A stretch of DNA of 64,000 nucleotides from Heptranchias perlo (GCF_035084215.1 NW_027139224.1:248001-312000), one strand, 5' to 3'; shown: positions 41,669 through 55,434, numbered from the stretch's first letter. Notes: generated by a model not told the origin, from the sequence alone. Made by a program: numbers and translations.

Positions 41669-42042
41669 TCCCAATACCCAGCCTGGCACTGAGCCCATCT
41701 CAGACCCCATTACCCACTGACCGAGGGTTAATGCCCCAATACCCAGCCAGGCACTGAGTCCCTCTCAGCCCCCATTACCCACTGACCGAGGGTTAATGCC
41801 CCAATACCCAGCCTGGCACTGAGCCCCTCTCAGACGCCATTACCCACTGACCGAGGGTTAATGCCCCAATACCCAGCCTGGCACTGAGCCCCTCTCAGAC
41901 GCCATTACCCACTGACCGAGGGTTAATGCCCCAATACCCAGCCTGGCACTGAGCCCCTCTCAGACCCCATTACCCACTGACCGAGGGTTAATGCCCCAAT
42001 ACCCAGCCTGGCACTGAGCCCCTCTCAGACCCCATTACTCAC
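41669..42042. repeat. 65-bp minisatellite starting at the proximal exon 1 donor, about 5.8 copies
   Basis: ACTGACCGAGGGTTAATGCCCCAATACCCAGCCTGGCACTGAGCCCCTCTCAGACCCCATTACCC. Confidence 0.96.
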
Positions 42043-42091
42043 CTGCAGAGACCCCTCCACACAGAACGACCAGAACTATCAGTCCAATCAT
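42043..42091 (-). CDS. MHC class I heavy chain exon 1, signal peptide MIGLIVLVVLCGGVSA (proximal copy)
   Basis: GCAATG start, hydrophobic leader ending VSA, G|GTGAGT donor; phase 1 joins GC to give mature GSHS. Confidence 0.9.
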
Positions 42092-42156
42092 TGCTGCTTC
42101 CCTCGACAGGCTGGGATGAGCAGTTTGTGGGAAATCCTTTTCAAGGAGACGGTCTC

Positions 42157-51402: not shown

Positions 51403-54400
51403 GAACATAGGAACAGGAGGAGGCCATTCAGCCCCTCGAGCCTGCTCCCCCATTCAATCAGTTCATGGCTGATCTCTACCTCATCTCCATTTTCCCGCTT
51501 TGCTCCGTGTCCCTTGATCCCATTCCCCAACAAAACTCTGATCAATCGCAGTCTTAAAAGCTCCAATTGTCCCGACATCCACAGCCTTTTGGGGGAGAGA
51601 GTTCCAGATTTCCACTTCCCTTTGTGTGAAAATGGGATTCCTGATTTCCCTCCTAAATGACCTCACTCTAATTTTAAGATGATGTCCCCTCGTTCTTGAC
51701 TCCCCCAACAGAGGAAATAGTTTCTCCGTCTCACCCTATCGAATCCTGTTAACATTATAAACCCCTCAATCAGATCACCCCTCAACCTTCGATACTCAAG
51801 GGAATACAAGACAAGTTTCTCCATCCTCCCTTTAAACCCCGGGATCATTCTGGTGAATCTGCACTGCACCCCCTCCAAGGCCAATCTATCCTTCCTGAGG
51901 TGCGGTGCCCAGAACTGAACACAGTCTCCAGATGGGGTCTGACCAGGACTCTGTTCAACTGAATCATAACTTCCTCCCCTTTGTAATCCAGCCCCCTCGA
52001 GATAAAGGCCAACATTCCATTAGACAGACTGGTGAAATGGGCAGACACACGGCAGATCAAATTTAACACAGAGAAGTGTGGAGTGATGTATTTTGGAAGG
52101 AAGAATGAGGAGAGGCAATAGAAAGTAAATGGTACAATTTTAAAGGGGGTGCAGGAACAGAGAGACCTGGGGGTGTATGTACACAAATCATTGAAAGTGG
52201 CAGTTGAGAAGGCTGTTAAAAAAGCACACGGGTTCCTGGGCTTTATTAATAGAGGCATAGAGTACAAAAGCAAGGAAGTTATGCTAAACCTTTATAAACA
52301 CTGGTTAGACCTCAGCTGGAGTATTGTGTCCAATTCTGGGCACCGCACTTTAGGAAGGATGTGAAGGCCTTGGAGAGGGTGCAGAGGAGATTTACTGGAA
52401 TGGTTCCAGGGATGAGGGACTTCAGTTATGTGGAGAGACTGGAGAAGCTGGGATTGTTCTCCTTAGAGCAGAGAAGATTAAGGGGAGATTTAATAGAGGT
52501 GTTCAAAATCATGAGGGGTTTTGATAGAGTAAATAAGGAGAAACAGTTTCCATTTGCAGGAGGGTCAGTAACCAGAGGACACAGATTTAAGGTAATTGGC
52601 AAAAGAGCCAGAGGGGAGATGAGGAGAAATATTTTCGTGCAGCGAGTTGTTATAATCTGGAATCCACTGCCTGAAAGGGCAGATTCACCATCTTCAGCCA
52701 GAAGTGTCGAGTGGATGATCCATCTCGGCCTCCTCCCGATATTCCCACCATCACCGAAGCCAGTCTTCAGCCAATTCGATTCACTCCACGTGATATCAAG
52801 AAACGGCTGAGTGCACTGGATACAGCAAAGCCTATGGGCCCCAACAACATCCCGGCTGTAGTGCTGAAGACTTGTGCTCCAGAACTAGCCGCACCTCCAG
52901 CCAAACTGTTCCAGTACAGCTACAACACTGGCATTTACCCGACAATGTGGAAAATTGCCCAGGTATGTCCTGTCCACAAAAAGCAGGACAAATCCAATCC
53001 GGCCAATTACTGCCCCATCAGTCTACTCTCAATCATTAGCAAAGTGATGGAAGGTGTCGTTGACAGTGCTATCAAGCGGCACTTACTCACCAATAACCTG
53101 CTCACTGATGCTCAGTTTGGGTTCCGCCAGGACCACTCAGCTCCAGACCTCATTACAGCCTTGGTCCAAACATGGACAAAAGAGCTGAATTCCAGAGGTG
53201 GGGTGAGAGTGACTGCCCTTGACATCAAGGCAGCATTTGACCAAGTGTGGCACCAAGGAGCCCGAGTAAAATTGAAGTCAATGGGAATCGGGGGAACACT
53301 CTCCAGTGGCTGGAGTCATACCGAGCACAAAGGAAGATGATAGTGGTTGTTGGAGGCCAGTCATCTCAGCCCAGGACATTGCTGCAGGAGTTCCTCAGGG
53401 CAGTGTCCTAGGCCCAACCATCTTCAGCTGCTTCATCAATGACCTTCCCTCCATCATAAGGTCAGAAATAGGGATGTGCGCTGATGAATGCTCAGTGTTC
53501 AGTTCCATTCACAACCCCTCAGATAATGAAGCAGTCCGAGCCCGCATGCAGCAAGACCTGGACAACATCCAGGCTTGGGCTGATAAGTGGCAAGTAACAT
53601 TCGCGCAAGTCAAGTGCGAGGCAATGACCATCTCCAACAAGGCAGAGTCTAACCATCCCCCCTTGACATTCAATGGCATTACCATCGCTGAATCCCCCAC
53701 CATCAACATCCTGGGGGTCACTATTGACCAGAAACTTAACTGGACCAGCCACATAAATACTGTGGCTACAAGAGCAGGTCAGAGGCTGGGTATTCTGCGG
53801 CGAGTGACTCACCTCCTGACTCCCCAAAGCCTTTCCACCATCTACAAGGTACAAGTCAGGAGTGTGATGGAATTCTCTCCACTTGCCTGGATGAGTGCAG
53901 CTCCAACAACACTCAAGAAGCTCAACATCATCCAGGACAAAGCAGCCCGCTTGATTGGCACCCCATCCACCACCCTAAACATTCACTCCCTTCACCACCG
54001 GCACACTGTGGCTGCAGTGTGTACCATCCACAGGATGTACTGCAGCAACTCGCCAAGGCTTCTTTGACAGCACCTCCCAAACCCGTGACCTCTACCACCT
54101 AGAAGGACAAGGGCAGCATGCACATGGGAACAACACCACCTGCACGTTCCCCTCCAAGTCACACACCATCCCGACTTGGAAATATATCGCCGTTCCTTCA
54201 TCGTCACTGGGTCAAAATCCTGGAACTCCCTTCCTAACAGCACTGTGGGAGAACCTTCACCACACGGACTGCAGCGGTTCAAGAAGGCGGCTCACCACCA
54301 CCTTCTCAAGGGGCAATTAGGGATAGGCAATAAATACCAGCCTCGCCAGCGACGCCCACATCCCATGAACGAATAATAAAAAAAATTCAATCATAACTTT

Positions 54401-54558
54401 CAAAAGGGAATTGGATAAATATTTGAAAGGGAAAACTTTGCAGGGCTATGGGGAAAAGGCAGAGGAGTGGGACTAATTGGGTAGCTCTTTCAAAGAGCTG
54501 ACACAGACACGATGGGCCGAATAGCCTCCTCCAGTGCTGTCCGATTCTATGATTCTAT
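51403..54558. mobile_element. Duplicate of the head-to-head CR1 pair, interrupted by a LINE insertion
   Basis: Collinear with 43990-45433. Confidence 0.88.
52688..54384 (+). mobile_element. 5'-truncated LINE (second CR1-group family) present only in the distal duplicate
   Basis: RT motifs [23 protein letters not shown]-rich tail; TSD ATTCA (52683-87 and 54385-89); empty site at about 45260. Confidence 0.92.
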
Positions 54559-55434
54559 TGGGGGTCACATTCACTAAACTTTCACCTTTCAAATAAAATG
54601 TCCACTTTTCCTCACAGTGCTGAACCTCTCTGATTTCAATCTCTTCCTTTCCTGTTACTTTCGGTTCAATCTCCCATTTTTAATCAATATTTATTTTCTG
54701 CCACTTTTGCTCCACTTCTCCTGTTGTGGCATCAAACGTTGCACGAAAGCACCTGGAGCAAGGGGTCATGAGAGAGGGGAATCAGCAATCGGAACGGTCT
54801 CAGATTGCCCGGTACTGGGAGATGGGCCTGGAATCACTGCTCCATTTACTCTACACCTTCCTCTCTCCAACTCTCAGCTTTGATGGATTTGTGCTGCACA
54901 ATGTCTGACCAGGCAGCACAATTCAGGATTTGCCGTACTCTCCCCAGATTTAGAAACCCCTCATCGAGAGAACAAATAAAGGGTTAATTCTACTGGGGAT
55001 TAAAAACGTGTTTAATCCAGAGAGGTGAAAAGCTGCTGTAAAAATGTCAGGTTTCACTGACTGATGTCCTTGCCCAGCAATAAATGTCTTTCTCAGTTGG
55101 CCCCAGTGCAGTGTCAATCTGTCACTTCTCAAAGACAAGGAGGGTCTGATGGGACACGGGATTGGAGCAACAGCTAAAGCAAAAGAGAAAGGGCTTTCTG
55201 TTCATTATCCTGGGCACTCGATGAAACTTCCCTCAATACAAGAGCAGTGTAAACACCGTCAAGGGTGGAAGGAGCTGGGGATCACTGATGAGAGCAGTCT
55301 GAGACACAAGACAAAATATCACAAGGAAAAACTGGGAAAAGGACCAGAGAATGTCAGGACAGGAAGTCCCTGTTGTATTATTGGGAACAGTGTTCACCGA
55401 CTTCACAAAACCTGCTCCTGATGGAAATAACTTT

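What the first reader, a model, noticed from the sequence alone, without database searches (positions are those of the whole stretch)
41669..54900. Tandem duplication of only the class I promoter and leader exon: two candidate first exons for one gene body
Seen: 41669-45775 and 49966-54900 are collinear (65-bp array, exon 1, promoter, CR1 pair, unique tail ending GTGCTGCACA). The 49-nt leader exons are identical and both have intact donors, while the flanks differ by scattered substitutions, indels, VNTR length and one LINE. No second alpha1 exon lies between them. Inference: a dual-promoter class I gene that makes the same protein under two differently wired promoters.
Basis: partly seen in the sequence, partly recalled or inferred. 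Interest (0 to 1): 0.7.

Follow-up and report, generated by a model that had tools for sequence, protein, structure and literature searches.

The report
Spare shark MHC promoter and leader
A shark immune-recognition (MHC class I) gene has a second, intact copy of its promoter and first exon 9 kb upstream; it is likely the leftover front end of a sister gene joined on through a retrovirus-like insertion, and whether it is ever used is untested.

Summary
The duplication is real: two collinear promoter + 49-nt leader modules, 2% apart, with no alpha1 exon between them. (1) The 4.2 kb between them is a composite LTR retroelement whose flanks do not match, while its families make 4-bp target duplications, so it marks a rearrangement. 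(2) The module is shared by 11 UAA-like copies in this genome and the leader is identical in 10, including a paralogue with a stop in alpha2, so identity shows no selection and the proposed UTR marker is not distal-specific. (3) The proximal unit shares its LTR insertion and 43-bp array with genes on another contig; the distal unit shares its LINE and flank with a third gene. Best reading (0.6): the front ends of two paralogues were fused and the distal one is an orphan 5' fragment, like primate MHC-V. It keeps a compact promoter and a donor, so use as an alternative first exon is possible (0.2); available RNA contigs, likely from another individual, cannot test it. The scan noted twin or traded leader exons in other sharks' class I genes.

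The parts
24140..34215 (-). Body of a UAA-like MHC class I gene: alpha1 33955-34215, alpha2 about 32880-33154, alpha3 31945-32220, transmembrane 26231-26356, two cytoplasmic exons near 25007-25040 and 24140-24185 (their boundaries not fixed)
   Evidence: Frame open from leader through transmembrane exon; PF00129; best solved relative of alpha2 is 6LUP, nurse shark UAA*01 by PMC8236899 passages; Leu at the W147 position
41665..42042 (-). Proximal 65-bp intron-1 array (5.8 copies) and splice donor
42043..42091 (-). Proximal leader exon, 49 nt
   Evidence: its 5' UTR letter at 42143 is private (1 of 11 copies)
42157..43711 (.). 43-bp array (36 copies) between the promoter module and exon 1; expanded in 8 of 11 copies
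43874..43962 (-). Proximal ISRE-like, X1-, X2- and Y-like boxes, about 1.78 kb from the ATG; X2-like site departs from the CRE half-site at 43897
   Evidence: sequence; box labels rest on recalled consensus, layout on PMC11257985 passages
43991..45775 (.). Proximal CR1-type fragments and unique tail, without the LINE
45776..48927 (+). Family-A LTR retroelement remnant: first 362 bp of an LTR, internal deletion, then protease, RT, two RNase H domains and the start of integrase, cut off
   Evidence: same insertion site in the paralogue at C1050:392605 (4/360 and 11/800 differences)
48925..49965 (+). 3' part of a family-B LTR, joined to family-A pol over 3 shared bases; its end abuts the distal 65-bp array
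49966..50978 (-). Distal 65-bp array (15.6 copies, 14 of 15 full units identical), cut by the LTR, and splice donor
50979..51027 (-). Distal leader exon, 49 nt, identical to the proximal one
51287..51374 (-). Distal ISRE-like, X1-, X2- and Y-like boxes, about 0.26 kb from the ATG; CRE half-site intact, one base missing at the edge of X1
   Evidence: labels from recalled consensus
52681..54383 (+). LINE insertion, shared at the same site with the complete class I gene on C1654
   Evidence: (one alignment across both junctions, 96.6%)
54385..55430 (.). Distal tail with the empty insertion site, running on into flank shared with the C1161 and C1654 genes

Best explanation
The window holds one intact UAA-like class I gene and, upstream across a composite retroelement, a second promoter and leader that is likely the orphaned 5' end of a sister gene. 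Shown: two modules; a retroelement between them with unmatched flanks; each module shares insertions with a different paralogue. Inferred: a family-A element sat upstream of gene A and a family-B LTR sat in the intron-1 array of gene B; a deletion or unequal exchange joined the two elements (by homology or at short microhomology) and removed gene B's body. The proximal promoter would drive the gene; the distal module would be a passenger with little or no spliced output.
For: Flanks of the element differ, while 2 of 3 two-LTR family-A copies and 6 of 10 family-B right ends examined show a 4-bp target duplication, as does a control element in the window; mismatched duplications mark inter-provirus recombination (PMC11379458, one passage). 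The family-A insertion is shared with the C1050 384-kb paralogue. The LINE, flank and 15-bp array are shared with C1654; distal+C1654 has 89% bootstrap next to the LINE, with 7 of their 8 shared sites there. The 43-bp array is expanded in the proximal unit and 7 C1050 genes but not in the distal, C1161 or C1654 copies. No sign of selection on the distal leader or promoter (P 0.37; Fisher P 0.47). The distal route needs a 16.8-kb intron past a competing donor, an antisense retroelement and 4 sense-strand AATAAA, against 0 in the native intron 1. Other partial class I genes occur in the assembly.
Against: The distal unit's nearest relative by overall distance is still the proximal unit (2.2% against 2.7-3.3%), and in the promoter-near 600 bp the two fall on the same side of an 83% split: the units are mosaics and history is blurred by conversion. 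One A/B hybrid element elsewhere has matching 4-bp flanks, so a hybrid can be a single insertion. The crossover point cannot be placed, because the C1050 copy itself switches to family B within pol. Nothing in the distal exon, donor or promoter is broken, and the same compact promoter type (C1161-like) is seen in RNA contigs.
Confidence: 0.6

Rival explanations
1. Working alternative first exon: whatever its origin, the distal promoter fires and its leader is spliced to alpha1 at 34215, giving the same protein from a compact promoter with an intact X2-like site, while the proximal promoter is spaced by a 1.55-kb array.
For: Identical leader, same phase, GT donor, intact boxes. A near-identical compact promoter type (C1161) is present in RNA contigs of the same organism label. 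HLA-C has an upstream promoter with its own transcripts (PMC5785035, abstract).
Against: No distal-specific RNA contig among those listed (32 of 358 pieces shown, sample likely another individual). Competing donor, antisense element and 4 AATAAA on the way. No excess conservation.
Confidence: 0.2
2. Local duplication: one event (an element whose two ends integrated 4 kb apart, or unequal exchange between alleles) copied the promoter and leader to both sides of the element; the LINE reached the distal copy later by gene conversion from a C1654-type gene.
For: The repeat flanks the element exactly, like a giant target duplication. 2.0% between units lies within the 2.0-3.8% LTR-LTR range of 3 family-A copies. 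The units are each other's closest match overall.
Against: Needs a conversion tract of over 2 kb carrying the LINE, a separate gain or loss of the 43-bp array, and loss of the second unit in the C1050 paralogue that has the same insertion. Bootstrap for the pair is 26%. A search for papers on such giant duplications gave no usable passage.
Confidence: 0.22
3. Assembly artefact: the distal module belongs to another gene or haplotype (for example the headless gene on C1438) and was mis-joined through the LTR.
For: The assembly has 11 leader copies and 11 alpha1 copies, with one spare leader here and one leaderless body at the start of C1438. Nearby contigs break in arrays. No listed contig bridges the LTR/array junction (32 of 5827 pieces shown).
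Against: No N between 24382 and 64000. The joins are a precise LTR end and 3-base microhomologies, and the LTR is only 1 kb. No orphan intron-1 piece or 65-bp array exists on another contig. C736 ends in a diverged class I promoter that could serve C1438. Contigs of three runs end exactly at 45775, as expected if filled and empty sites both exist.
Confidence: 0.07

Closest known systems
Primate MHC class I fragment pseudogenes, above all MHC-V (5'-end fragment; PMC12674619, passages)
   Same: A 5' remnant of a class I gene left by birth-and-death evolution next to other class I sequences; MHC-V has been claimed to be transcribed together with the 3' fragment MHC-P.
   Different: MHC-V holds exons 1-3 and is old and divergent; this piece holds only promoter and exon 1, is 2% from its neighbour, undamaged, and points in phase at an intact gene.
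Recombinant proviruses with discordant LTRs and mismatched target duplications (PMC11379458, one passage)
   Same: Two different LTRs and unmatched flanks marking a host rearrangement.
   Different: There a translocation; here a local fusion of paralogues, with further internal deletions; the reciprocal product was not found.
Elasmobranch MHC-Ia and 'MHC-Ia-like' genes (PMC10751288, section 5 read); nurse shark UAA*01, PDB 6LUP
   Same: UAA-like protein, on a contig with a TAP2/ABCB9-like gene about 260 kb away; zinc-finger frames on this contig and on C1161.
   Different: At least two UAA-like genes are TAP-linked here, on different contigs; this one has Leu at the W147 position. The paper's main text has no occurrence of 'promoter', 'pseudogene' or 'tandem'; its supplements were not read and may describe such copies.
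HLA-C NK-specific upstream promoter (PMC5785035, abstract)
   Same: A second promoter upstream of a class I gene.
   Different: That is a distinct element with non-coding exons and demonstrated transcripts; here a full copy of the coding leader module with no transcript shown.

Membership tests
MHC class I 5'-fragment pseudogene (MHC-V kind) | 5' part of a class I gene with no body of its own | tested here: met
   No alpha1, alpha2 or alpha3 between the units or elsewhere on C1057 beyond the one gene
MHC class I 5'-fragment pseudogene (MHC-V kind) | Descends from a separate gene copy | tested here: inconclusive
   Insertions point to separate lineages; substitution trees are mosaic
MHC class I 5'-fragment pseudogene (MHC-V kind) | No functional product | not testable with these tools
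   Only contigs of RNA-like runs, likely of another individual
Gene with duplicated alternative first exons | Each first exon has a promoter, start codon and donor in phase with the shared exon 2 | tested here: met
Gene with duplicated alternative first exons | Transcripts from both first exons spliced to the shared body | tested here: inconclusive
   Leader-to-alpha1 joins are in all 4 runs but cannot be assigned to a copy; cover beyond 51107 is C1161-like
Rearrangement between two LTR retroelements | Discordant LTRs and unmatched target duplications | tested here: met
   control element with matched flanks
Rearrangement between two LTR retroelements | Crossover inside homologous sequence, or a reciprocal product | tested here: inconclusive
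   Visible joins are 3-base microhomologies; crossover not placeable; no reciprocal array/LTR locus found
Classical shark MHC-Ia (UAA) | Conserved peptide-anchoring residues | tested here: inconclusive
   Y7, Y59, R84, T143, K146, Y159, Y171 positions kept (numbering recalled); W147 position is Leu, Trp in 6 of the 7 paralogues shown and a stop in one
Classical shark MHC-Ia (UAA) | Close linkage to TAP and PSMB8/9 | tested here: inconclusive
   ABC half-transporter exons on C1057; one exon scores TAP2 57.8 and ABCB9 57.5 bits; no proteasome match on C1057
Classical shark MHC-Ia (UAA) | High allelic polymorphism and broad expression of this locus | not testable with these tools
   Reads cannot be assigned to single copies

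The most novel reading that the evidence does not exclude
Retroelement-mediated fusion of two paralogues gave one TAP-linked shark class I gene two working starts for the same protein: a compact promoter with an intact X2 box and a promoter split from exon 1 by a 1.55-kb minisatellite. That would make this haplotype a natural test of how array length and X2 state set class I expression, and a route by which class I genes swap promoters.
Probability: 0.2. Interest if true: 0.55.

Novelty: new member of a known kind. Interest (0 to 1): 0.3.

Why it matters
As a passenger fragment it is an ordinary product of MHC birth-and-death, though an unusually legible one: both donor lineages survive elsewhere in the same genome and the breakpoint is marked by a retroelement. 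It shows a concrete way for a leader-promoter module to end up in front of another class I body. If the distal start is used, it would be a class I gene with two full coding first exons under different spacing, a structure I did not find described in three paper searches (open-access library only).

Tried and rejected
Leader identity as evidence of selection: rejected. C1057 and C1161 as allelic haplotypes: rejected, different TAP-type genes and no long-range synteny in the parts fetched. A plain LTR-LTR recombination within one family: not seen, the two ends are of different families. Asking which unit is native to the gene body: window-wise distances to paralogues are star-like at 1-2% and do not decide. 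Reads: no listed holder is on record as RNA; DNA runs hold 0.55 of the words and show only the non-proximal letter at 45639, with no cover at 47672-48263 in two runs, so the sample likely lacks this haplotype; holes prove nothing. An apparent link of 49476 to 49966 is a chance 6-base match to the array unit. The exon set was off by one base and was corrected. Papers on giant target duplications: nothing usable. One script for the LINE-junction and array comparison did not run; the comparison comes.

Full report
Observation. The window (G000:C1057:248001-312000) holds a minus-strand MHC class I gene whose frame is open from the leader through the transmembrane exon. Its alpha1 matches PF00129 and its alpha2 is closest to PDB 6LUP, nurse shark UAA*01 according to passages of PMC8236899. 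There is one alpha1 on the contig. No N lies between 24382 and the window's end.

What lies between. 45776-49965 encodes protease, RT, two RNase H domains and a cut-off integrase start. Both ends belong to repeats with about 1600 first-look candidates each (40 scored each). Comparison with dispersed copies shows two LTR families. The window has the first 362 bp of a family-A LTR, an internal deletion, family-A pol, and then, over 3 shared bases, the 3' part of a family-B LTR that ends precisely inside the distal 65-bp array. Both families leave 4-bp target duplications: 2 of 3 two-LTR family-A copies and 6 of 10 family-B right ends examined. So does a second LTR element in the window. The flanks of this element do not match. 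One passage of PMC11379458 reads such a pattern as recombination between two proviruses. Against: one A/B hybrid on C5 has matching flanks, so the hybrid form alone is not proof; the flank mismatch is the evidence.

The module is a family trait. The genome has 11 copies of this leader module (20 of 20 candidates scored), 11 alpha1 matches and 11 near-identical alpha3 exons. The leader is identical in 10 of 11 copies, among them a paralogue with a stop in alpha2. At the local divergence, no change in 49 nt has probability 0.37, and the core promoter is not significantly more conserved than its flank (Fisher P 0.47). The proximal UTR letter is private; the distal letter is shared with 8 other copies.

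Each unit has a different relative. Proximal: the family-A element sits at the same site upstream of the paralogue at C1050:384-392 kb, 1.1-1.4% apart over the shared part, and the 43-bp array is expanded as in all 7 C1050 genes. Distal: the LINE lies at the same site in the complete gene on C1654, the flank beyond the empty insertion site is shared with C1654 and C1161, and there is no expanded 43-bp array. Distances over six units are star-like: 2.2% between the two, 2.3-2.5% from proximal and 2.7-3.3% from distal to the others. Trees: proximal+distal 26% over the whole 2 kb; distal+C1654 89% next to the LINE; but proximal, distal, the C1050 56-kb gene and C736 group at 83% near the promoter. 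The units are mosaics. Three insertion characters favour fusion of two paralogues; local duplication plus later conversion remains possible.

Mechanism. Shown: two modules, a composite element with unmatched flanks, shared insertions. Inferred: a family-A element upstream of gene A and a family-B LTR in intron 1 of gene B were joined by deletion or unequal exchange, leaving B's promoter and leader 9 kb upstream of A's. The crossover cannot be placed, since the C1050 copy switches to family B inside pol. This resembles primate 5' fragment pseudogenes such as MHC-V (PMC12674619, passages).

Could the distal start work? Both units carry ISRE-, X1-, X2- and Y-like boxes in the order described for class I promoters (PMC11257985, passages; the box sequences are matched from recalled consensus). 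The distal set lies about 0.26 kb from its ATG with an intact CRE half-site; the proximal set lies 1.78 kb away and differs at that site. A distal transcript would need a 16.8-kb intron past the proximal donor, an antisense element and 4 AATAAA, against none in the 7.8-kb native intron; this is weak evidence. Runs: 4 DNA-like and 4 RNA-like runs of one sample, all contigs. The RNA-like runs cover the leader deeply, show it joined to an alpha1 start in all 4 runs, and run on into the 43-bp array; low cover at 51110-51153 has two changes and a 48-base back-joint that match C1161 exactly. The DNA runs suggest that the sample lacks this haplotype, and they neither show nor exclude the LTR/array junction; contigs end exactly at 45775, as expected if filled and empty sites both exist. 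Use of the distal exon is therefore untested.

Artefact. One spare leader here and one leaderless body on C1438 invite a mis-join. But no orphan intron-1 piece or 65-bp array exists on another contig, C736 ends in another class I promoter, and the joins are a precise LTR end and microhomologies. I give it 0.07.

Context. C1057 carries TAP2/ABCB9-like exons about 260 kb from the gene and C1161 carries TAP1, so this is likely the class Ia region, where PMC10751288 (section 5) reports one bona fide class Ia gene plus Ia-like copies. Which copy is the classical one was not settled; this one has Leu at the W147 position. That paper's supplements were not read.

Earlier notes of the scan (unchecked, other genomes) describe twin leader cassettes in shark UGA genes and leader modules traded between lineages. 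They fit a mobile leader-promoter module but are not evidence.

Verdict. Real feature, known kind: a young, intact 5' class I fragment fused upstream of a paralogue at a retroelement junction (0.6), with a minority chance of acting as a second promoter (0.2). Interest 0.3.

Noticed in passing
window 57764-63932: A second LTR element inside the 15-bp array region: 670-bp LTRs with 12 differences and a matched 4-bp target duplication; the internal 4.8 kb has no close copy in the stretches fetched.
   Followed up: partly
G000 C1057, C1050, C1161, C1654, C526: The alpha3 exon is identical in 9 copies and nearly so in 2 more, while alpha1 differs by 4-21%: strong homogenisation outside the peptide-binding exons.
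   Followed up: no
window 42157-43711 and C1050 copies: A 43-bp array of 1.0-3.6 kb separates the SXY-like module from exon 1 in 8 of 11 copies, and RNA-like contigs run into it; how such genes start transcription is open.
   Followed up: partly
window alpha2 exon, about 32880-33154: Leu at the conserved W147 position of an otherwise classical-looking UAA.
   Followed up: partly
G000:C1050:90000-330000: Five near-identical tandem class I genes with a divergent alpha1 (no Y7 or Y59 in the three aligned); one has a stop in alpha2.
   Followed up: partly
G000 C1438:1-2017, C526, C736 end, C1093 end: Further class I pieces at contig ends or arrays: a leaderless alpha1-alpha2 pair 96% like the window's, an alpha3-to-3' piece, a diverged promoter, and a lone intron-1 array.
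   Followed up: partly
G000:C5:133708525 onward (L087, L120) and C1050:392605-401378: Other A/B hybrid retroelements: the two LTR families recombine repeatedly in this genome.
   Followed up: partly
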